DNA of 64,000 nt, taken from assembly GCA_973895155.1 (NCBI GenBank), contig OZ316898.1, positions 7,179,079-7,243,078 on the forward strand, in the 5' to 3' direction. Position 1 is the stretch's first letter. Each line of letters starts with the position of its first letter. The stretch is from Marsupella aquatica. Lineage: Eukaryota > Plantae > Marchantiophyta. The notes below the pieces were generated by a model. The model saw nothing but the letters and a program-made list of their open reading frames with translations, searched no databases and was not told where the DNA came from. The position numbers were made by a program, and so were the translations under genes. Of the stretch, positions 1-14,165 are shown piece by piece.

Positions 1-731
1 AAGATCCAGACCATATAACCATTTTATGACCTTGGCCTAAGTTCACTTAGGGCCCTGTTTAGACACCCCTATTGAGCTACTGGTCTGCATTTATTACAGT
101 ACATCTCAAAGAGATTTATGGGGTTGAGGTCTCGGACAGGTGATCTAAAATCCCAATTTCATTGACCAGGCCCTGGTTGTGACACGCCCTATTAATTAAG
201 CTACTGGTCTAAATTCCCAGTGTCATTCCCCAATCGAGGTTTTGGGTTTACTGATCTATGCACCTCCAGCGATCGAATGCAAGTGCTGTTTCGTGCGGAT
301 CCTGGTGAATCGTTGTGGAACTTCCACTGAATCTGTGTTTGGTTTGAGCTTGCTGTTCTGCCTTCAGCTCTCTGGGAGCTCCGAATTACGTATTCGTGGT
401 TTTGGGTTTACTGATCTATGCTCCTGAGTCTTCCAGCGATCGAAAGAAATGGATAGACTCGAAGAATAAGCTAATGCGGCATGTTGATCGAAATGTGATC
501 GAAGCATTCGGCCTGAATACTTTAGATCCTTGTGTTTCAGGGTTTTGTGGTGTATGAAGAGTTCGGAGATCGAAGCCAAGTGATTCCAAAATGCAAATCA
601 ATGCTGCACGGTGTTGATAGAAATGCGAACGAAGCAATTGGGTTAAGTAATTTCGATACCTGTGACATCCGGAGCTTTGTCCTCTCTCTCGCTCGGCCTC
701 GTTCGCAACATACGGATCGGGGTGGAGCGTC

Positions 732-739
732 TAGGGTTT
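732..739 (-). promoter_or_regulatory. Telo-box (AAACCCTA) just upstream of the bL25 start codon
   Basis: TAGGGTTT at 732-739. Telo-boxes are typical of plant ribosomal-protein gene leaders. Confidence 0.45.
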
Positions 740-772
740 TAGGTCCGGGTGATTGGATCGGAGTTCAGCAAA

Positions 773-2243
773 ATGCGTGCTCATCTTTTGCCGTTGATTG
801 CACGAGCCGCTATAGAAGCTGGGAGAGATTCGTCATCGTCAACTACAAAAGCCCTGGTGACTGGAATTTCTGAAGTACCTGGAGTTTCTGGAATCGTTGG
901 AGTATGTAGAGGTTTGAGAGTTGGGAGAGCTTTAGGGATCGATTCTAGTGCCGGACAGTTTGCGTGGAGAAGAGAATTCGCTTCCGTAGCTGCGATCGAT
1001 CAGGAAGATGATAGACCGCCGAGTATGCGCAAGTCAGCGGCGAAGAAAGAGGACTTGGTGCTGCGAGCATTTCTCCGGGAGAACAGTGGCAAAATCCCCG
1101 CAAAGAAGGAGAGGAGATTAGGGTTGGTACCGAGTATCGTTTTCGAGCAGGAGAAAATATCGGAGAAAAGGCTCATTTCATTGGAGCGGAAGCAGCTGGA
1201 TGACATTGTAAATAGACTCGGGCGAACTTTTTTCCTGTCAAGGGCGTACGAGTTGGAAGTCTATGACAAGCCTGGGCCTGACGGACAGCTTCTCTCCAGA
1301 GAGATGGTCTTACCACGCACGGTGTGTTGTAGCCTCTTCTGGAAACTCTCCTTGTAATTTTGTACTATATGTGTAGCTCTTATCTAGGAGGTGGTGCATG
1401 TCCACATTTGTGTAGATTGGAACAGTGAGGTCCTAGCATATCAGCATTTTCAATCATACGAGACAATTGTCTGTGAGTGTGCAGATTCACCATTCTGCGG
1501 AAGACAAGCTTCTGAATGTCACTTTCATGAAGGCACTTTCAGACTCACAAGTGAAGGTGGAAGTTCCAATCATGTTTCTGGGAGAAGATTCCTGCCCTGG
1601 AATTCGTAGAGGTATCATTCTCTGCTTCGCATCCGCCCTGTATCAAATCTGGTGTTATGGATGTCTTGTCCAAGGCTTTTGTTCTGGACAGTACTCATGT
1701 ATGCAGCCATCTAAATCAGATCAATCGTTCTTTAATGCAACCTTCTGACACAGTAGGTTATGTTAAGTCGAACTCAGCAGGTAGGACCTTCATTACTGGG
1801 ATGTAGTAGTTGACTTCTAAATCCAGGTAGTCTCATTAAATTGGCAACCCCAGCAGCCCGGATGGATTTACCCCAATCTTTTTTATTTTGGGTAAATTCT
1901 GCTGCAGCCTAGCTGGAAATATTGTCAGCCTAGGTTTGCTGTAGAGCTAGAAGTCTTCACTATTGCCTGCAGTATGGCACGTTGATCTAATGAATTTGAG
2001 GAAATCTGGGTGACAGGTGGGTATGTCAACACTATCATGCGGGCAGTTCCGTATCTTTGTCCGATAGATGCAATCCCTCGTTTCCTGGAGGTGGATATCA
2101 GCACCCTCGATGTTGGTGATAAGGTTCTACTTAAGGACTTGAAAGTGGATCCTCGGCTCAAGCTAGTGAGGAGGGACACCTTGTTGCCGGTTTTGAAAAT
2201 AATGGGAACGAGAACTGTGGAAGCAGCCGTCTCGCCAAAATAG
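773..2243 (+). CDS. Organellar 50S ribosomal protein L25/TL5 (bL25, with C-terminal Ctc domain); 3 exons
   Basis: Exons 773-1321, 1485-1611, 2017-2243, all GT-AG and in phase. Motifs: RENSGKIPAKKERRLGLVPSIVF, LNVTFMKA..VKVEVPIMFLGEDSCPGIRRGGYVNTIMR, IPRFLEVDISTLDVGDKVLLKDL. The Arg/Ser/Ala-rich N-terminus resembles an organellar targeting peptide. Confidence 0.9.
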
Positions 2244-4028
2244 TAAGTTTTGTTTTGAAGCTACCAGGAAGTTTTAAGAGGAGTTGACACCGTGGAAAGG
2301 GTTTACTCAAAGGTTTCTGGAATGGCTGTGACAGTTCCGTCCTCAAGTCTCCAGTCTAGTCCAACAATCCAAGTTGCTTCCGAAAGTCGCCAAAACTGTG
2401 GACAGGAACATAGATAGCTTAGAAGGTAGTTTGAGAAATTCTCCCTCAACCCAGACCGACTTGTCTCTCGTTGGTCCGAATGCATAGGTGCGTGTTTACT
2501 CACAAAGAATGATTTAGAAACTCAGTTGAAGGTGATCACCAAGGTGCAGAGCTCCATTTCTTGACAACCCCAGCCTTGTCAACAGTGCCAGCAAAGGTAG
2601 GTAGTATATTTTCATGATGCTTATGAACGACGGATGAAAGAAACCTTAACGGGTAGTTTGAAGACTTGCAGCCATGGCTGAACAAGTAATACGAGTGAAG
2701 TCCATAGTATTTCTCTGAGTTAGCTGTAATCTGCAGCATACAAGATACAAGGCCGGCGAGGATAGAATGCACGTGCAAAGTGTGTACTCTAAATCTTATG
2801 GCTGCTATCCTGCCGTTAGAGCATACCTGTCTTGGAATCGTAACGATTTTAAAAGTGTGCTTTGAACTTGTCCCGGCTGTTCGCAAATATATCTTTTCTA
2901 GTGGGGATTTGTTTGTTTCACTCGCTGGTGGGCGAAACAGCTTGGCTTGTGTTTAGCCTTTCTTCTTCACCAGCAGGCAGGCAGATGGATTTGCTTGATT
3001 GTGATAGCAGGCACAGGAGGGATAGATGAGGATATGAAAGGTCCGAAAGCACTTTTGGAGCTGTGCTAAATTGAGTGCTTTAAGAGAAATTGGCAAAGCT
3101 ATCCGAGCTTGAGTTTTTACAGTATGGTTACTAACGCCTAACTCGTTGTCCAAGACTTAAAGTCATTTATTCTTAAGTGCTTTGAGGAAAATTCACAAAT
3201 TTGAGCTTGAATTTTCACAGCATTGTTACTATAGCCTACACTTGCAAGATCTGGCTCGTTTCCAAGACTAAAAGCTAGTTGCTGAATTAGTGTGACATTT
3301 TAGGGGGTGGAACCACTCATGGGCGGCATACAGAGAACATAATCAGGGGCAGACAAGCGGCAGAAGCACCCAACCGAGATGCGGTGAGTTAGTATTGTGC
3401 TTCAGCATTGAGCCTTAATATAAGTCTACATAGATTGGATCCCTTCAAAACTGAAGAGCCTTGATACTAGGATGGATCAGAATGACTGGACTTGGACTCT
3501 GATTAATCAAACACTTGTTTAACACCTAGAAGAATGCCATTTTGTAGAAAGGAAAACTGTTATCTGAGTACCTAATAATGTTTCAGGATGAAAGTGGATC
3601 TAAACCACAATACATTACTGACCTGGTCCATCGAACACATCCGAGCCAATGTCCTTTACACAAAGTAGGACAGTTTTACTAGCCCGTTCAGTAATACCAC
3701 AGGTTCATGACAAAACAATATAGAAGCTAAACTATCATCCAACCAGGATCAAATGTACTCCCAAGCCCATTGCCTTCATCTACCATTTTCTGAGTGCCCC
3801 ATTGATTGATCCATACTCAGGACATGGCAACCCATATTCCCTTACACATCTCTAGTCTCATTCAAGACACTCAGTTTTCCAAGATTCCTAGCCGCACTTA
3901 ATCAACAAATTAATTCTCTTACATGAGATGCAACATGCATGCTTCTAATCTTGAGGGGCTCCAGCCTTGCCCCACTTGCACACCAAAGCAATCTCCTGAG
4001 GTCTGATCTAGATTATTTCATTTGTCTG

Positions 4029-6015
4029 CTACAATACATTTAAAACTTTTGAAAGGTTATTTGTAATGCCTGATGTCATTGCTTCGCGCATAAAACCCCC
4101 CATTGCCTGTTCAGCAAAAGTTTGAACTTTCTTTTTTGATTCTGAATGGCAAAGATCCATGCTTATGTCAGAAAATATGTGTTCATTGGAGAGGGACACA
4201 ACAGTCATGCAGCTCATTAATTAATATTTGCTCGATAGACTCTTTGGGAACTACTGTAGGAGTTCTTTCTTGGAATATTTATCAATATAGACAAAAGACA
4301 TTCAAGATAAAGGCTCACAAAAAATAACTACATTAATAAATCCTTACAAACTTTTTAAGTCCTAACTAAAGCCCAAATCAATATTCAAAGCTATTTGTGC
4401 TCAGTCATTTTGTAAAATCAACTACAGCAAGGACAGGGTTATGAAAGATTTGAGATGAGATGTGCACACCCTTGTGGCACTTTGTGAAACCGACGATATT
4501 GGAGGCACACATTGTCAGGGCTATAAGATCAATCATGAGAAAATCAAAATTAAACTTCAGGAGTGCAACAATTGCAAAAAGAGTCCAGATCGCTGGCTGC
4601 ATAAAGAACCAGAAAGTGTTGTCAGTAAGCCATTTGCTTGAAATGGAGCATGGGAATTGATACATGGAAAATGTTTGTTTGTTTCTTTTGTATATGCATT
4701 ATGTTTTCTTGAGCAGGTCATTTGAAAGGCCTATGAGCAGATCATTCAGCTAGAATGATAAATGTGGAGACTCACAGTTACATATAAGCTTGTCCAAAAG
4801 AGTATTGTGTCGTTCTTGTTCAATCCTTCTAAAATCTGGGGATGTGCATGTTGTACAATTAGATTAGACAATCTTGAGGCTTTTCCACTAACACTATACC
4901 AAGTGAGAGATGACTGTAGATACATTCTCATGTTTATCCTAGCTTGTAAAAATGTGAATTCTCTTATCTTGGAAGTTGGAGTGAACTTATCTAACCATAT
5001 ATTCATCCTATTTCATCGCATGATAAGCATTTCATTCATTAAAAAATAACTCATTCGACAAACATCCAATTGAGCACAACATGCACTTCAGTAAGCTTTG
5101 GCCATTATATATTTTTAAAGGAAAAAATGTGATCAAATATATGGTGGACTTGCCTGTCGATCAAGGGACTCAAACCGCCAAATACTACTGCCACGTTGGT
5201 CACTTTCATTCCAGTACCTTAGGCCAACCAATATCCTTCCACTGACATTCTTTACAGTCCAAAAATCAAATGCCATCAACAAGACTATAAACACAAATTG
5301 TAGGACAAAACTGCTTGTCATCCACCCTCCAAAAATGTACAAAAATATTGCTGAACCCTGTTGGATGCATATCAATGTATGGTTAGAGATCTTCAAAAGC
5401 CTGACCAAACAGTTTGTTTTCATGTTACCCAAATAGAGAAATTTCACTTAATAGTTTCAGTAAAGAGTATGCGCATCCTCAAAATTCAGATACAAATTAA
5501 TATGGTAACATTGCGGAGGAGAAGACCTTTTGGAGGAGATGGATGGGACATACCTTAAATAGAACATGGAAGAACACTGTTTTTGGGTTACTGTAAGAGT
5601 GTGTTTGAGAGGGATTTTGCTGCGCATATGGTGCTTGACCATGGTGAGGTTGTGCTTGTTGTCCATATTGTTGGTGTTGTACTCCCCCTTGTTGATACTG
5701 CTGAAAGGTTTCTTGGTATGGTTGCTGATTTCGTGGGTTAGTGTATAGTTGTTGGGTTTCCCTCTCATCTAGCTGTTGAGGATAGCTTTGGTACCCAGGT
5801 TGTTCCTGTTGTTGCTGTCTAGCTTGTTGTACAAGGGCTTGCCTCTCGTAAGGTGGGTGGTAAGGTTCTTGTGCTTGATTTTGAGGTTGTATATCTCTTT
5901 GAGCTCGAGCTTGGTAATTTTGCTGCTTTTGAACTTGATGGGAGGGTTGGAACGTGCTTCTAGATGCTTGGCGTGTTGGTGATGGTGTGGGCGATGGTGA
6001 TCCTGGGGTTTGACC
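4029..6015 (-). CDS. ECH: ECHIDNA/TVP23-family Golgi/TGN membrane protein with a long Q/P/Y-rich N-terminal extension; start-codon exon unresolved
   Basis: Exons 6015-5554, 5357-5154, 4835-4776, 4596-4470, 4141-4029. The spliced protein reads YSNPKTVFFHVLFK|GSAIFLYIF..FDFWTVKNVSGRILVGLRYWNE..WRFESLDRQ|ILEGLNKNDTILFWTSLY..|PAIW..SNIVGFTKCHK|ESKKKVQTFAEQ, colinear with the ECHIDNA/TVP23 family. Intron 5153-4836 has a GC donor. Confidence 0.88.
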
Positions 6016-8790
6016 CTATAACATTCAATGCCACTAATGAAGATTTCCAATCTAAAACATTGTAACGGTTTACTGTGCAAAAGGTCTAACCTAGTAAGGA
6101 ATGAGGTCAGGAAGCTTGTCAAAGCTCTTTAGGGTGGAATGATCTCATCATGGGATGCTTAAGGAATGAGTTACCCACCTGTTACTCCATTTTATTGTCC
6201 CAGACTATGGAAATTGTATGATATGACTATTGCTATTCATGAAATTGTATGATATGACTGCTATTCATTGAGCAGATACTACTTAACAAACTTTGGTGGC
6301 CTCTCACAACAGGCATTTGCTATAAACAAGACTGCTAAACAAATTAAACAAATAATGTTATTAAAAAAGCTTGTAGTTATATTCACCTTATCAAGATACC
6401 ATTGTATCATTTAGACGACATGCATGAATTAACTGAGAGGACTCAATGGTAGATAGAAGTCAATTCAACCTGAAGGCATATATAATTTCAGTTTGTCATT
6501 CAAGCGTATTTAGTTGTGCGGAGGAATAATAAAACTTAGGTACGGTATGGATTTCAATTACATTCCTCACACCTAGCTCTAAAAAAAAAACAAGAGAGCT
6601 AGCTGGTTTTGGAATTACCATTGGAGAATTATGGTTGCAGTCTATTCAAGCATAGATTGAATAATATCAGCTTGTTACCGTCATGAAACTTGCAGATGTG
6701 AGCACATCATGAAACTTGCAGATGTGAGCACTAACTGGAAAATGGGAAATGAGATCAGCTAAACACGATGTATACTCTTCACAACACTGACTCTAACTTG
6801 AATCCTCAAGGCTACCATGATTAGAAATCACAGAATGTAATGGAACAATTTCACACTAGGATTTGAAAATGATCTTCAATTATGAATATAAGATTCCAAA
6901 TCATGAGGCTTTTGAAGTTCAGGTTGTTGTCCAAGGTAGGAAATCAATCTTGGAATGTTCAATTTCAATAGGATTGAATGAAATTTGCTAATAGCAATAG
7001 TCGACACCTGCTCTTCAAGTCAAGTTGGGTCCAAATTGTCTCTTGCATTCAATACTTTTCATCCTTTCTTATATCTGCATTATACCTGAAATTATGTATT
7101 AATACTAATTTAATTCCTAGTTTCATTTAATACACATATGGGTTTGACTATTTACGTATTTCAGTCATTCAGTACTTGATGATATATCAAACTTGCACAC
7201 AACCATGGGATCCCTTAGAGAGCCAAACCTTGTGCCAAGAACAGGACACTGCCAAACATTACTCACCTTACTAGCTAGACTATGTCTGTGCTCACAGAGA
7301 CAAAAGAGACATAGTTGTCATCAAGTTTGAGTCATGGATTTGGCCCTTTTAAATCTTCCTTGCCAAATATGTGCATAGTTCTTCCTTTAGTTTATAGAGG
7401 GCTTCCAAACACCCTAACCTCTTAAAAGTTGAGATGATAATAACTTAAGGAGTTAGCTTGTTGTATTAACAAGATTTGTTTCTCAGAGAAATAACAACTA
7501 TATAGATTTTGCATAATTGCTATAATTTGTGTAGAAAACAATTTTTTTCATTAATTTACACAAACTAAGAATTTAATAATTTATGTATTGGCAAATTTTA
7601 GAGATCTGAAACTATAACCAGCTCCAAGTTGCCAACTGCCAATTTCAGTAAGAATGGGGATTGCCAAACCAACCCGCCATTCAGACCTCCATTTGCATTC
7701 ACACTAGAAGAGACACATGCGAGACTGATTTGTGCAATTTAATCAAGATTGATTTGAAAGTAACTAAGTAAGCATGAACAACCTATATGGGAATGGAGGT
7801 CACTCAGTTTTGGATTGGTGGGTTTATCAACTTTTGATGGTTGTATGGAATTTAATTCCTCTAACACATACCTCTACCTCTAGGACTTGCAGAGGCTTGG
7901 TCACCAAACCTGCTGAGATGCTATTAATGAGAGCCATGGATCTAATTTAGGGGTTGCTCTGAGGGCCATGGGCTCTAGGGTATCATGAATTACACAACAT
8001 ATTTTAAAAACCTTGAAGAACAAACGAGGACATGGATTGAGAGTCTAGAGTCCATTAATGTTGAGTAAATTAATGTTGAGCAAAGCCTCGCCCATAAACA
8101 ATATGCACATGTGAAACATGCAACTAAGAAGTAATTGGCACAAAAAATAAATGGCTAATTTCTCTGTAGATCATGTTCACAGGGACACATAGTTCAGATG
8201 AATTTATTGTACTCTAGGTTTGTCATCCATACCAAGTCTTTAGAGCACAAGCTTTCTTGTCGCTCAAATAACTTCAATTCTCTTACAATGAATCTAAGTT
8301 CTACTCACATGGTAACTCTTGCTTGTGCATATATTAAGTAACTTAAATAACCTTGATCAAGTACCTGATTTTGGTCGGACTAATTACAGTTAGAAAGAAA
8401 CTCTATTTCCAAAACTAAATGCCTAACTATTAAATCCAGACACCCAGCCTGAAATTTTTTATGTGAGGCCAAATGCTGGTGTCATCTATTGAAATTGACA
8501 GTAAACGCAAGTTTTGAATAACATAAACAAAATACCAACAAAACTAGACTGAGAAAATATTTTGGTTGGTTGGAAAATCAACTTGAGAAAAGAACTGTAC
8601 AGTGCATCTGGTCACGGAATCCATCCAGAGATGCGCATCTCAGTATCTTCTCATCTTCTCCCTTGGACGGCTCACAGAGAGTACACCTGGCCAAAAGCTG
8701 CAATGTAACACAGTAGCCCGTCAGGTCATGCTGACTTCATTACCTGACGATTTACACGCCCTTTACAACCCGTTCCCGTCATGGTGACTC

Positions 8791-8987
8791 CAGTGTCACT
8801 TGACGTGGCGCATTTACACTTCGTTCACGAGCCCTTCTGGTGACGCTGGCATCATCAGTGTCACTTTACTTGGAGAATTTACACTTCGTTTACGAGCCCT
8901 TTGGGTCACGCTGACATCACCAGTGTCACTTTACGTGGCGCATTTACACTTCGTTTACGAGAACCCTTCGGGTCACGCTGACACCAT
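8791..8987 (+). repeat. Three tandem copies of a ~65-bp unit upstream of ARD
   Basis: Units start at 8791, 8856 and 8921 (CAGTGTCACTT..CATTTACACTTCGTTTACGAGCCCTT..GGTCACGCTGACATCA). Copies 1 and 3 carry ACGTGGC. Confidence 0.9.
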
Positions 8988-9259
8988 CAATGTCATGTCA
9001 TTCGCTCGATCCACATTTTCTCCGTGGGCGATGAAGAAACGAGCTTCAGCGGAAAATCGGCCCTCGCTTTGTCTGCCATAGCTTTTCGTTCATTTGGGGC
9101 GTTGGACATTCATCGAATCGATTCAAAACAAATCTTGCGAAATTGAGCAGCCTGTCTCGCAGGGCCTGTTCTGTGGTGGTTTAAGACTGAAAACGCAGTC
9201 TGTGGGGGTTTAATTGTTGTGGAGTTTGTTTCAGACTCGCGAAGTGAGGGTCGGGAGCT

Positions 9260-11946
9260 ATGGGGATTCAGGTTAGTACAGCAGAGCACACCTCAGCTCG
9301 TCTTGTCGTTGATTGATCAAGCGTGTTTCGGTCGTAAATGGATGGTTCGTCGGTGCCTATGTGTGGCTAAAACCCTGTTCGTTTGATGTCGTTGGATTGT
9401 TTCCGTCTCGTGTTTGAAAGAGCGTGGTGTTGAAGTTGTCGCCGATTGGTGGAGGATGAATTTTGGTTGAATTTGCGGGTGTCCGTCTGGCCAAAGATTT
9501 TTCTGCCGTGCAATCTGTGTGTTGTCGGGATCGATTTTGGATTCTGACTTTTAGGAGTGGATTCGTGGGGATGCAACTTTTTTGGGTCTGCGTTGGATTA
9601 GTAGGCTTGGATTTCTTCAATTCGTCGTGGATTTGTGGACATGAGTGCAGTGTGAAACTTTAGTGGTTTGTTTTAGATTCCAGACCTCAATCCTTGTTCG
9701 CTCTCAACATTTGGAACTTTGTCATTCGCGCGGCAGGTTGATGGACCGCAATCTCGAGTTTTGGAAGCGTGGTATATGGATGATTCTTCGGAAGATCAGC
9801 GCCTTCCTCATCGTCTCAACCCTAACGAACCCGTGTCTGCGAAGACGTTAACAGGTGTTTATTGCGTACCCTATCGATTGCCGTGCTCAGGAGTAGATTA
9901 TGGTATTATATTTGCATTTTGGAATAAGGTCTGAATACAAAAATTTGAAGTAGAAGATCTTAACGTTTGCTGTCAACTTTAAACGTGGTGAATCCTTCAA
10001 ACATAGAGTTGTTACCGAGATCGATGCCTCAGTCAAATTTTTTTCTTCAGAACGCCATTGTACATGTGGGAAGCGATAGATCTTTTGAGTGTTGAAGGAA
10101 TGATTGCCATCTAATTGTGCAGGAAGAGGAAGTAATAGAGCTTCTTCTAGTAATAATCCGCCTCGGCCCATCTCCCCTATAGGCATAGCAGCATTTGTTG
10201 GGATGGAGCAAGGTCGTTTGTCTTTTCAGACAATTGTTCGACAATGCAAAGCCGTTGTGTTTGTTGATCTGAATAGCGCATTTTCTCATCTCATTGCAAG
10301 TGACATGTCGTTTGGACTTTCTCAGACTTGGGGGTACTTCAATGGGTGCTGGATGCCGACAAGTTTGAAAATGACCCTGAGCTGGAAAAAATCCGCAAGG
10401 ATCGGAATTACAATTACCAGGTCAAGGGCGCTCTTGTTTTGAAAATAGGCTGTTCCATTATATCGTTGATCCATCCCTTGTGTGTCATCTTTAAGACTCA
10501 ATTAAGTTTTCTGAAAGTGAGCCTGATAATAAGTACGCTATTTGAGGTTTCTACTCTATTGTGAAATATCGCAATACATGATTGGCGTTTTGAGAAGACT
10601 TTTCTGGCAAAACTCTGTTCAATTCCTGGCTTGGAAATCCACCGTCAGGAGCCAGGAAATGTAAGACTTGTGCCTAAGAGTGGAAAAACTAAGGACGGGC
10701 TTTCTGTAGTTTGTGTCAGATGTCCCTGCTGTGGATTGTCTTCAAAAAATTGAAGAATGGCATCTCTAGGAATTAAGCTTCTGTAGGTGGTACTTGAGGT
10801 GCTGGCTTTGGATTGATCGTCTAGCCGTAGACATTCGATTATCCATAGTCTTAGGCTGCCTGCCTCCCTTCCAGTGGGGAAGTGACTTCCTACTTAAACT
10901 CATTCTATTCGTTTTCTAGCCGGTATTCTAATCAGCACTGATACATTCTTTTCCGGAACTCACGGCCAATTCCCTGGTCTCCCGTGCAGGATATCATAAC
11001 TGTGTCACCTGACAAGCTGGCTAACTATGAGCAGAAAATAAAATCTTTCTACGAGGAACACCTCCATACGGATGAAGAAATTAGATATGTCCTTGATGGA
11101 GGCGGTGAGTGCTCGATTTCGACCTCCTTCTGAGTCGGAAGGTTGTAAGATGTTCACGCCAGTAGTTTCATCTTTTCGTTTATACTGGATCTACCTTGCA
11201 ACCCAGGAGATTGTGTCTGATGGGAATTGTACGCCCCTTGCCAGGCTACTTTGATGTTAGAGATGCTGAGGAGCGCTGGATACGAGTATGGACAAGGAAG
11301 GGAGACATGATTGTTCTACCAGCTGGAATTTATCATCGTTTCACTTTGGATGAGAGCAACTACATTAAGGTACTTAGAGTAAACCCAGTGGAATTGTGAA
11401 TGCGTCCCTTCGTCAATCACGACACCTTAGTCCTACTTATTGTCAATCCAGGAAGCTCTAAGGGTGAGAAAGTCACCGGAAGTTGCGACTACCCTGCATA
11501 ATAATAGCGCTTTGGTCCTTTCGGTTCTCGGTTTCACCAGCACTTCATAGGCAATCTTTGTTCAATCTTACGTGCCGGAGGAGGAGGGGAACAGATGGTC
11601 CCCTGTGTTCCTGAGTGATCTATTAACACGTATGAGTCGTTTATTGTTTTGCAGGCCATGAGACTCTTCATTGGCGAGCCGGTATGGACCGCACACAACC
11701 GGCCACAGGAAAATCATCCCATCAGGTACGGCAAGCGTCCCCAGACTTCACAATTGCCCTGCTCCACCTCAGGCATCTGCTCTGTCGTTCCATTTAAGTG
11801 GTTTTGTGCCCTGCAGTAAATGCCAACGTATTTTGACGTGAGGATAGGAACCTTACCTGATCCAAGTTGTATCCTATGGTGACAGGCAGGATTATGTCAA
11901 CAGCTTCTTGAAGGCACACGCAACAACTGCTGTTATAGCACACTGA
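9260..11946 (+). CDS. ARD: Acireductone dioxygenase (methionine salvage/Yang cycle); 7 exons
   Basis: Exons 9260-9271 (MGIQ), 9737-9854, 10326-10420, 10990-11104, 11245-11369, 11655-11725, 11886-11946. Motifs: [15 protein letters not shown], metal-binding [42 protein letters not shown]. Confidence 0.95.
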
Positions 11947-14165
11947 ATACGTCCCTTGCCCTATCGTCGTCATCTGTGACTGCCGTCGAAGTGTAATTCT
12001 GTGGACACTTTAATTGTATTGAATTACTAGAAAATTGTGGCAGTCTCAAAAGGCAGAATCTGGGAACAAGCCGACTGGAATGTATCATACCAACTTAGCG
12101 GTCTCAAAGAAGACCAAGCTATATTATTGTTTTGTAGAAGTATTGCAATTGCATATCGCAGATAATCATCAACTCGATTTCGCGAGGCAAGAAATATTCG
12201 AATCATGTACTCTCGAAATTGAAAATGCTGGTGATTATGGTTCCACAGTTAGAACCCAACTATAAGGGAGTGTCTTGGATGGTACAGTGATACATTGATC
12301 TGTTTCTGCTACCTTTTCCAATTGTTTCAGGCAGGTTTCCATGACATCTCGCAAGAAGACAGGATCCAGTTTTCAGGGGATAGTTTTGGTTTTTGCCCAC
12401 AGGCAGGAGGTGGGTGCAGCTATGCAAGTGAATAAGACTACAAAATTATAGCTTTCTAAGGACACGACAAGCGCCCAAGCTTTGCATCTAGTCACCCCTG
12501 AAAAAGGAAAGTACAATAAGGGTTAGGATGTGTGCTTAATACCCTACAAGGCAAACAACGAGGTTGGACTTGCAGTAAATCATTGCAGTGGATGTCGTTA
12601 CATTGGACTTCTGGTCAACCATGGCAAAAGAATTACCAAAAGTTAGGTGTTGGACGAGGGCGTCTCCAAGGTGGATGGGAAGTTGTGAATTAGCCCTTAG
12701 TACAGGTTTAGCAGTCTTGGATGTTATTGACATGAGCTTGAAACGAAGGAGTCTAAATGCACGTAGTTCAATGAGAGTCCAAACCTCTCTTGGTGCATAG
12801 TACCAGTTTCCAACTGACAGCAGAGATTTCTTCAGATTAGTGCTTTAAAAAGGATTTTGATAGTAGAAAATTAGTTCCAAGGTAGTTCGTCTGCCTCCTG
12901 GAAGCTTCGTAAATTTCACTTGCCCTGCATTTCAATCTCTTCCTTGTATTTTCAAATTATTCAAGTCTTATGGAACTTGAAATGTCATTTATTCAAAATT
13001 GTCATTCATTCAAAATCCACCCGCAGTACAGTAGTTTAAACTCGAACAACAAAGACTAGAAACATTTTAGGAAAAAGGTTGTAGTTGCCACATTGCCAAA
13101 ATTGAAACCTTGTGAGTACCCATAGACAAGCTAGTAGTACCTCAGGACGGAATCTGTGTAATGCACCTGGGATGGCAGTGCATCTATTGAAGAGAGGTGA
13201 GTGTTTCATGGTAGAAACGTTTACGCAAATGGCAAATTGCCTCTCATCACAACCCTCGGTCTACAAAGGGGCTTCAGTCTGTCCAGCCAAAGCTAGGCAT
13301 TGTCGAGTTCACTTGTAGATGGAAAGAACGATTTAACAATTAACGATACCAAAGGCACCCAAGGTCTGTATTGTACTTGTCCAATTTTGGAGATCATGAA
13401 TAGCACATAGAAGAGTCGCACCAAGATACTGTAGCAAAAGTTGCTCTATGCGGTACTCAATGTCTGCATAGTACGCAACCGGAAGTCTCATGTCTATCTA
13501 CTTTTAACATCCCAGGACACTTTCGCTCCTTGACGGAGGGCTGGCCTTATCAACCAAGTGCTTCGTTGGTGAAGAACGCATACTATTTAATCTGACAAGG
13601 CTTGCACCTATTCCTAATAGAAAATTGGAATCACATAATTGCAATAGTTGATTAGCGTGGGTAGTCTGGAATTGAGCAAGATGGACATCAGTGCCTCAAC
13701 AGCACAGGATCAGAACACCAATCTCATGTCAACAGGATCCAGCCATTGATATGAAAGAATGATTAAGTTACCACATGATATTGACATCGGTAGTGATGTA
13801 CCAAATTTTTAACTTCACCAACCCGTGACAAGAAGCCTCACGACAGATGGAGGACAGATGCCACGCAAGAATATAGAAGCGGATTCATGGCCTAGACAAG
13901 GAATAGTACAATCTGCTCGGGATTATAAAAATGGTATGTACAACAAATACTGTAGCTCTGAAAATTGCTGAGGATGTCATCAGAGGACTGCACTGTAAAT
14001 CCGAAATAGTGATACTACTCTTGCTCATCTGATCATTATCCAGCATCATAGCTCACTAGGGAACTAATGACAGCTTGACTACAAAAGAATGAATGATTAT
14101 GCTGGATATTTACAAATTGAATTTAGGACCTTGGGATCATTCGATGACCTATATTTGTCTATCAT

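What the first reader, a model, noticed from the sequence alone, without database searches (positions are those of the whole stretch)
5554..6015. Hidden 154-codon Gln/Pro/Tyr-rich exon fused in frame to ECHIDNA/TVP23
Seen: on the - strand, in a frame absent from the ORF track (no start codon), TATAG|GGT at 6015 opens a stop-free 462-bp exon: GQTPGSPSPTPSPTRQASRSTFQPSHQVQKQQNYQARAQRDIQPQNQAQEPYHPPYERQALVQQARQQQQEQPGYQSYPQQLDERETQQLYTNPRNQQPYQETFQQYQQGGVQHQQYGQQAQPHHGQAPYAQQNPSQTHSYSNPKTVFFHVLFK|GT. It runs directly into the family's N-terminal motif. Known: Arabidopsis ECHIDNA has only about a dozen residues before this motif. Inference: a ~140-aa cytosolic prion-like low-complexity domain on a TGN membrane protein could form condensates or tether vesicles. 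The core is divergent and the introns AT-rich, so this may be a specialised, tissue-specific paralogue.
Basis: partly seen in the sequence, partly recalled or inferred. Interest (0 to 1): 0.78.

Follow-up and report, generated by a model that had tools for sequence, protein, structure and literature searches.

The report
Liverwort-only ECHIDNA copy with prion-like tail
This leafy liverwort carries a second, liverwort-only copy of the Golgi secretion gene ECHIDNA whose open reading frame adds a 140-residue glutamine/proline/tyrosine-rich tail, also annotated in a close relative but nearly absent in Marchantia, that is predicted to be floppy and cytosolic and might cluster secretory vesicles.

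Summary
Observation confirmed. Window 6015-5554 (-) is a stop-free 154-codon frame between a TAG acceptor and a GTATGT donor. It joins four further exons into a 321-residue ECHIDNA/TVP23 (DUF846) protein that lacks only its start.

It is very likely coding. Calypogeia fissa CAM6087001.1 is annotated with the same tail (78% identical, in-frame gaps). A second haplotype shows 21 substitutions and no indel in the pieces covering 318 of 462 exon bases, whereas the intron has many indels.

It is not hidden in the wider sense, because the orthologue is annotated. It is a real paralogue: window, C. fissa, Marchantia polymorpha and two Riccia form a liverwort-only clade (99/99), and all four named genomes also hold a canonical 178-179-residue ECHIDNA.

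Long Gln-rich tails are rare: 3 of 454 scored homologues, all in this clade. The tail is not constant: 140-175 residues in Calypogeia, about 150 in Riccia (17-residue repeats), 26 in Marchantia. The likely Marchantia orthologue is listed as heat-induced and is absent from the MpERF13 oil-body gene list.

Splicing, start codon, location and condensate behaviour are untested. Verdict: new variant of a known family, moderate interest.

The parts
5596..6015 (-). Gln/Pro/Tyr-rich N-terminal tail, 140 codons (31% Gln; Gln+Pro+Tyr 50%), 5' part of the exon
   Evidence: 107 of 137 aligned residues identical to C. fissa CAM6087001.1; low pLDDT in the orthologue's model
5554..5595 (-). Y-x-N-P motif and start of predicted membrane helix 1; 3' part of the same exon, donor AAG|gtatgt
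5154..5357 (-). Next exon (68 codons): helices 1-2 and the KNVSGR loop; ends at a GC donor (CAG|gcaagt)
   Evidence: Pfam PF05832 E 2e-26
4776..4835 (-). Exon of 20 codons, start of helix 3
4470..4596 (-). Exon of 127 bases, helices 3-4
   Evidence: PF05832 E 5.5e-8
4029..4141 (-). Last exon with stop; carries the MREAMT signature of the paralogue clade
6619..6621 (-). Candidate start codon at the end of an upstream exon (ATG|gtaatt); inferred, not shown
   Evidence: best-scoring of 5 ATG|GT sites upstream with a rough donor matrix; unchanged in the second haplotype; the C. fissa model has Met directly before Gly1

Best explanation
The stretch is very likely a coding exon of a liverwort-only ECHIDNA/TVP23 paralogue ('ECH2'), and its 140-residue Gln/Pro/Tyr-rich tail is predicted to be a disordered cytosolic segment whose spaced tyrosines would let many copies stick together and gather ECH2-bearing trans-Golgi vesicles, possibly under heat stress. 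Shown: open frame, splice-type boundaries, family membership, paralogue clade, tail composition and rarity. Inferred: splicing from an upstream exon ending in ATG; a four-helix membrane core with both ends in the cytosol; work in the ECHIDNA-YIP4-RABH secretory module like canonical ECH; weak multivalent Tyr/Tyr and Tyr/Arg contacts, as in the synaptophysin tail. My odds are about 0.9 for the gene structure and paralogue status, and about 0.35 for the clustering mechanism.
For: Coding: the C. fissa model starts M-GQTPGSPSP and aligns over the whole exon with three whole-codon gaps. The spliced window protein is 73% identical overall and 86% in the core. In run X3 the second haplotype's two exon pieces hold 21 other letters and 0 gaps, while two intron pieces hold 35 other letters and 24 gap letters; 0 of at least 6 indel events fall in the exon (p=0.035 by length, p=0.07 by substitution count). 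Paralogue: 5-row clade at 99/99, apart from a 7-row canonical liverwort clade at 99/97; canonical copies in C. fissa, M. polymorpha and both Riccia. Tail: PLAAC-like score 27.3 (window) and 38.3 (C. fissa), the only 2 of 454 at 25 or more (frequencies recalled, not the PLAAC program). No hydrophobic stretch in the tail. pLDDT is under 50 at residues 17-47 and 101-177 of the C. fissa model, with four long helices in the core. Against C. fissa, Tyr is kept at 9 of 10, Phe 2 of 2, Pro 14 of 15 and Gln 39 of 43 positions. Riccia fluitans has a 152-residue tail of similar make-up built from 17-residue repeats, most beginning N/S-Y. Precedent: the Tyr-repeat tail of synaptophysin phase-separates and clusters vesicles with synapsin (PMC8424992, abstract). 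Stress hint: Mp6g05850, annotated ECHIDNA, is UP in heat, heat+dark and heat+mannitol (PMC9946954 supplement); it likely equals MARPO_0097s0058 by gene-number offsets.
Against: No transcript or protein evidence for this gene was obtained; both C. fissa and Riccia tails come from gene models whose RNA support I could not see. The M. polymorpha orthologue has a 26-residue tail, so the heat response there does not involve a long tail. pN/pS between haplotypes is 0.43 and not significantly below 1 (7 synonymous, 12 non-synonymous, p=0.07); two Tyr change (to Phe and His) and one is gained. Aromatic retention is not significant against all other residues (p=0.46); it is significant only against the non-Y/F/Q/P/S/G set chosen afterwards (p=0.02). 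Calypogeia and Riccia tails do not align above shuffles (z 0.2-1.1). The model puts helices on the Gln-rich residues 53-97 of C. fissa (pLDDT 59-77), so part may be helical. No heat-shock element with one mismatch or fewer lies between 6016 and 9700.
Confidence: 0.35

Rival explanations
1. The tail is translated but nearly neutral: a fast-evolving, partly redundant paralogue tolerated repeat expansion in its first long exon, separately in Calypogeia and Riccia, and selection keeps only the frame open because the exon's end encodes helix 1.
For: Marchantia keeps 26 residues only. The two long tails do not align, and only Riccia shows 17-residue periodicity (z 7.6 and 7.4; window best z 2.6, under the shuffle limit of 3.1). 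C. fissa has a fresh 10-residue repeat insertion. The ECH2 core itself is relaxed: 61% identity between C. fissa and Marchantia, against 80% for canonical ECH. pN/pS is not significantly below 1.
Against: The tail is 78% identical between window and C. fissa, close to the core's 86%. Two lineages split about 294 Ma ago (10.1101/2025.04.01.646537, passage) both carry 140-175 residues of similar Gln/Pro/Tyr/Gly make-up, and no row outside this clade among 454 does. The last 50 residues align weakly without gaps across lineages (5 to 77 of 2000 shuffles reach the score; post hoc).
Confidence: 0.3
2. The tail is a docking or retention arm: short Pro/Tyr motifs would bind a coat, tether or penta-EF-hand partner and send ECH2 to a different trans-Golgi sub-domain, without phase separation.
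For: The segment AQEPYHPPYERQ is identical in window and C. fissa; Pro is kept at 14 of 15 positions. Similar Pro/Tyr/Gly-rich arms occur on annexin A7/A11 and Sec31 (recalled, no call).
Against: Read by eye, neither tail has a Y-x-x-(L/I/F/M/V) or NPF motif. No motif is shared with Riccia above chance.
Confidence: 0.2
3. The stretch is not translated: the real start lies near helix 1 or the gene is decaying, and the open frame reflects CA-rich, stop-poor DNA.
For: No in-frame ATG and a TAG just before Gly1; the start exon is inferred. C. fissa has a Met 10 residues before the Y-x-x-P motif that could give a canonical-length protein. Only one C. fissa ECH2 record surfaced although most of its genes are duplicated.
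Against: The window has Ala, not Met, at that place. Indels are absent from the exon pieces in the second haplotype. The gaps against C. fissa are whole codons. All five exons give one intact 321-residue frame. The 6016 AG is the most T-rich acceptor candidate.
Confidence: 0.08
4. ECH2 serves oil-body formation, the liverwort-specific redirection of secretion.
For: The clade is liverwort-only; oil bodies form by redirected secretion using a paralogous syntaxin (PMC7708844, search listing).
Against: Neither Mapoly0097s0058 nor Mp6g05850 is in the 9 readable supplements of PMC7708844, whose MpERF13-dependent table does list MpSYP12B. Riccia, which I recall lacks oil bodies, keeps ECH2 with a long tail.
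Confidence: 0.07

Closest known systems
Calypogeia fissa CAM6087001.1 (unnamed protein, 357 aa; P0003)
   Same: Orthologue: same tail start after Met, 73% identity overall, 86% in the core, sister in both trees at 100/100.
   Different: The tail is 35 residues longer, mainly through a 33-residue Gln repeat block. It is a gene model only, and I found no paper on it.
Marchantia polymorpha MARPO_0097s0058 (likely Mp6g05850; 206 aa) and Riccia R1flu_029205 / R1sor_004482
   Same: Same liverwort-only clade (99/99); C-terminal MREAMT signature where the model is complete.
   Different: Marchantia tail 26 residues; Riccia tails about 150 residues of 17-residue repeats with 15-16% Gln, not alignable to the window's tail.
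Arabidopsis ECHIDNA and canonical plant ECH (incl. C. fissa CAM6101440.1, MARPO_0126s0022)
   Same: DUF846 core with the Y-x-N-P, FW-x-VKNVSGR and FESL motifs. ECH mediates TGN secretion with YIP4a/b and RABH1b, and its mode of action is unknown (PMC11663552, passages).
   Different: Only 5-12 residues before the motif; separate clade, 52-53% core identity to the Marchantia canonical copy; slower evolution.
Yeast Tvp23 / mammalian TVP23B
   Same: Same family; TVP23B binds YIPF6 and shapes the Golgi proteome (PMC10282085, passages).
   Different: TVP23B is a 22-kDa protein (same passages), too small for a tail of this size; distant in the tree.
Synaptophysin cytosolic Tyr-repeat tail (works-like analogue)
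   Same: Vesicle protein with four membrane helices (PMC11260120, search listing) and a disordered Tyr-repeat tail that phase-separates (PMC8424992, abstract).
   Different: Unrelated family. Its tail is C-terminal and negatively charged and needs synapsin; the window's tail is N-terminal, near neutral (+1), and has no known partner.

Membership tests
TVP23/ECHIDNA (Pfam PF05832 DUF846) | DUF846 domain above the curated cut-off | tested here: met
   Two exons alone score 93.1 and 33.4 bits against a cut-off of 22.6; orthologue 154.9 bits.
TVP23/ECHIDNA | Multi-pass membrane core with conserved motifs | tested here: met
   Two hydrophobic blocks in the window protein; helices 180-202, 206-231, 264-290 and from 294 in the C. 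fissa model; motifs kept.
TVP23/ECHIDNA | Trans-Golgi location and binding to YIP4/YIPF6 | not testable with these tools
   Needs imaging and co-precipitation; no liverwort YIP4 was fetched and no complex job was run.
Canonical plant ECHIDNA orthologue group | Groups with the single conserved land-plant ECH and has a short N-terminus | tested here: not met
   Falls in a separate 5-row clade, and the canonical liverwort copies form their own clade. The tail is 140 against 5-12 residues.
Liverwort ECH2 paralogue clade (named here) | One clade with C. fissa, Marchantia and Riccia second copies; MREAMT C-terminal signature | tested here: met
   96/95 and 99/99; signature. Whether the duplication is inside liverworts is unresolved: a clade of both liverwort copies is not rejected (p-AU 0.11) but is not the best tree.
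Prion-like low-complexity domains | Prion-like composition over 60 residues or more | tested here: met
   Own PLAAC-like log-likelihood score 27.3 with recalled frequencies; the PLAAC HMM itself was not run.
Prion-like low-complexity domains | Intrinsic disorder | tested here: inconclusive
   pLDDT under 50 over 108 of the 175 tail residues of the orthologue, but helices at 53-97; the tail's alignment was shallow.
Prion-like low-complexity domains | Phase separation or self-templating in vitro or in cells | not testable with these tools
   Bench work.

The most novel reading that the evidence does not exclude
Liverworts kept a second, heat-inducible ECHIDNA on which a tyrosine-sticker tail grew twice independently (17-residue repeats in Riccia, Gln/Pro/Tyr runs in Calypogeia), turning a conserved trans-Golgi membrane protein into a synaptophysin-like, temperature-responsive clusterer of secretory vesicles: a plant vesicle-condensate system built on an integral membrane protein.
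Probability: 0.15. Interest if true: 0.75.

Novelty: new variant of a known kind. Interest (0 to 1): 0.42.

Why it matters
ECHIDNA is central to plant trans-Golgi secretion, yet its mode of action is stated to be unknown (PMC11663552, abstract). Liverworts offer a natural series: a canonical copy, a paralogue with a 26-residue tail (Marchantia) and paralogues with 140-175-residue prion-like tails (Calypogeia, Riccia). That makes the role of the N-terminus, and of condensation at the TGN, testable by tail swaps in established model liverworts (Marchantia and Riccia being transformable is recalled). I found no paper on the second copy or its tail (paper searches; the library lacks most subscription journals). 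If the tail proves neutral, it is an ordinary lineage-specific duplicate with an expanded first exon.

Tried and rejected
No whole genome is held for this window, so a canonical ECH in this organism itself could not be sought; only one ECH-like gene lies in the window.

RNA: no RNA holder listed. The four runs laid are contigs that cover introns as well as exons, and no joint with intron-type ends was listed.

Metagenome scans with the exon and with the C. fissa protein confirmed 0 of 518 and 0 of 438 pattern matches. The ESM Atlas gave no usable feature hit and no structure hit above TM 0.37 for the orthologue's tail. Foldseek against the PDB gave no match at E 0.001 or better. Pfam hits on the tail are below cut-off. 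Earlier scan findings: none in 3 look-ups. No ECH2-type protein from unnamed Logan, JGI or ENA sources stood out in the listed hits (lists cut at 99-150 rows); this is not evidence on expression. No M. paleacea ECH2 surfaced either.

A start codon broken by one inserted base was considered. It was set aside because both haplotype contigs of X3 end at 6010 and so likely share the acceptor letters, and the frame is intact. The ATG|GT at 6402 lies where only one haplotype was laid. A 22-codon exon ending at the strong donor 7871, and an ATG-ACG|GT exon at 6678, remain possible.

17-residue periodicity in the window's tail was not found. ABRE-like and heat-shock motifs are no more frequent than chance in the window. 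Gene-ID searches found nothing in supplements of PMC6174852 (file cut when stored), PMC13545645 or PMC9680858, and PMC7717909 had no ECH passage in its main text. No complex prediction was run.

Full report
Observation. Window 6015-5554 on the minus strand gives the 154 residues quoted, with no stop and no Met, between gttatag|GGT and AAG|gtatgt. Chance is unlikely: 6 of 5000 letter shuffles of the exon and 0 of 5000 intron-like random sequences were stop-free, and GC is 46% against 36% upstream. The acceptor is more T-rich than all 36 AGs inside the exon.

Gene. Four further exons (5357-5154 with a GC donor, 4835-4776, 4596-4470, 4141-4029) join it into 321 residues and a stop. Two exons pass the Pfam DUF846 cut-off on their own. 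The extension before the Y-x-N-P motif is 140 residues. The start is not shown. The C. fissa model has Met directly before Gly1. The Riccia sorocarpa model joins other sequence at the position just after the Met of R. fluitans, which suggests an intron right after the ATG. The best of 5 upstream ATG|GT sites is 6621-6619 (rough recalled matrix), and all 17 differences and 9 gap letters of the second-haplotype contig over 6479-6693 lie outside it. Other small first exons remain possible.

Is the tail coding? The best relative is Calypogeia fissa CAM6087001.1, 357 residues, so the window is likely a leafy liverwort near Calypogeia (inference). It aligns across the exon with three whole-codon gaps; tail identity is 107 of 137 and core identity 155 of 181. 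Runs X3 and X4 hold a second, diverged haplotype. In X3, two pieces covering 318 of 462 exon bases have 21 other letters and no gap, and two intron pieces have 35 other letters and 24 gap letters. That is 0 of at least 6 indel events in the exon (p=0.035 or 0.07). Of the 21 differences, 19 were listed and classified: 7 synonymous, 12 not, no stop; pN/pS is 0.43, p=0.07. The frame is thus kept, while residue constraint is modest.

Paralogue. Two trees (38 and 35 rows, chosen by me from plant and algal hits plus a few outgroups; most of the 513 proteins were left out) put the window with C. fissa, M. polymorpha MARPO_0097s0058 and two Riccia proteins at 96/95 and 99/99. A separate canonical liverwort clade (99/97) holds 178-179-residue copies from the same four genomes. 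ECH2 evolves faster: 61% against 80% identity between C. fissa and Marchantia. The duplication therefore predates the split of leafy and complex-thalloid liverworts, dated to about 294 Ma (10.1101/2025.04.01.646537, passages; its supplements and methods were not visible, so RNA support for the C. fissa model is unknown). Whether it happened within liverworts or earlier is unresolved (p-AU 0.11).

How unusual is the tail? Of 513 proteins held, 454 had the motif and a complete first helix. Of these, 24 had 80 residues or more before the motif, and 3 of those had 12% Gln or more: the window, C. fissa and R. fluitans. R. sorocarpa falls below only because its model carries extra upstream sequence; its own tail is 15% Gln. 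Two of 454 scored 25 or more on my PLAAC-like measure; 48 scored 10-25, the top ones having short Asn/Gln-rich N-termini of about 50 residues from unnamed sources. The sample is what the searches listed, not the whole family (1621 representatives at E 0.001 or better). Riccia tails are 17-residue repeats (z above 7), the window's is not periodic, and the two kinds do not align except weakly in the last 50 residues. Marchantia has 26 residues. One origin with loss and two origins both remain open.

Structure. AlphaFold2 of the C. fissa orthologue on a 15-row alignment gives low confidence over most of the tail, helices on the Gln-rich part and four long helices in the core. There is no PDB match. 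With no hydrophobic stretch in the tail and four passes, both ends are likely cytosolic (inference).

Expression clues come only from Marchantia. Mp6g05850, annotated ECHIDNA, is UP in heat, heat+dark and heat+mannitol and appears nowhere else in the readable 39,917 rows of the table in PMC9946954. Those rows include cold and dark series; the file is cut, so later stresses were not seen (heat was 33 C for 24 h). Mapoly0097s0021 = Mp6g06230 and Mapoly0097s0053 = Mp6g05910 place s0058 at Mp6g05860 by count, one step from 05850, so the identity is likely, not shown. The gene is not in the MpERF13 oil-body table of PMC7708844.

Mechanism. Canonical ECH acts at the TGN with YIP4 and RABH1b (PMC11663552, passages); TVP23B binds YIPF6 (PMC10282085, passages). 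ECH2 keeps the core and likely joins the same module. The tail has about ten Tyr spread through Gln/Pro spacers at near-zero net charge, and Tyr, Phe, Pro and Gln are largely kept against C. fissa. This is the pattern by which the synaptophysin tail clusters vesicles (PMC8424992, abstract). I give multivalent clustering of ECH2 vesicles 0.35, tolerated repeat growth 0.30, a docking arm 0.20, non-coding or decaying 0.08 and an oil-body role 0.07. Against the favoured reading: the Marchantia copy lacks the tail, two Tyr vary between haplotypes, and aromatic retention is not significant against all other residues.

Verdict. This is a real feature and a member of TVP23/ECHIDNA, but not the canonical orthologue. 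Its orthologue is present in a public gene model, and it was not discussed in the papers my searches reached. New variant of a known kind; interest 0.42.

Noticed in passing
window 8791-8995: A 65-base unit repeated 3.1 times (86% matches) between ECH2 and the divergently oriented ARD gene; two units carry ACGTGGC, an ABRE-like core (ABRE label recalled; not enriched over chance in the window).
   Followed up: partly
window 5153 (- strand): The intron after exon 5357-5154 starts with GC (CAG|gcaagt), a minor donor type with otherwise strong consensus.
   Followed up: partly
window about 9760-11800 (+) and about 740-2240 (+): Neighbours: an acireductone dioxygenase gene (PF03079, E 3e-21) head to head with ECH2, and a ribosomal protein TL5/bL25-like gene (PF14693, E 6e-13) tail to tail.
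   Followed up: partly
runs X3 and X4 over window 1-12500: These runs hold two haplotypes, one identical to the window and one about 6-8% different in the pieces counted, as expected of a hybrid or allopolyploid with the window's lineage as one parent (inference).
   Followed up: partly
window 6681-6731 and 6210-6268: Exact 26-base and near-exact 31-base tandem duplications upstream of the exon; the 26-base one doubles short upstream ATGs near the candidate start.
   Followed up: no
P0005 and P0007 (Riccia ECH2): Tails are about nine degenerate 17-residue repeats in register with the family's own N-Y-x-N-P motif. The R. fluitans model looks cut at its C-terminus and the R. sorocarpa model carries about 170 extra N-terminal residues.
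   Followed up: partly
P0022 cluster (Sphagnum) and P0402 (Ceratodon): Mosses also have second, diverged ECH copies, but these have no Gln-rich tail and fall outside the liverwort ECH2 clade.
   Followed up: partly
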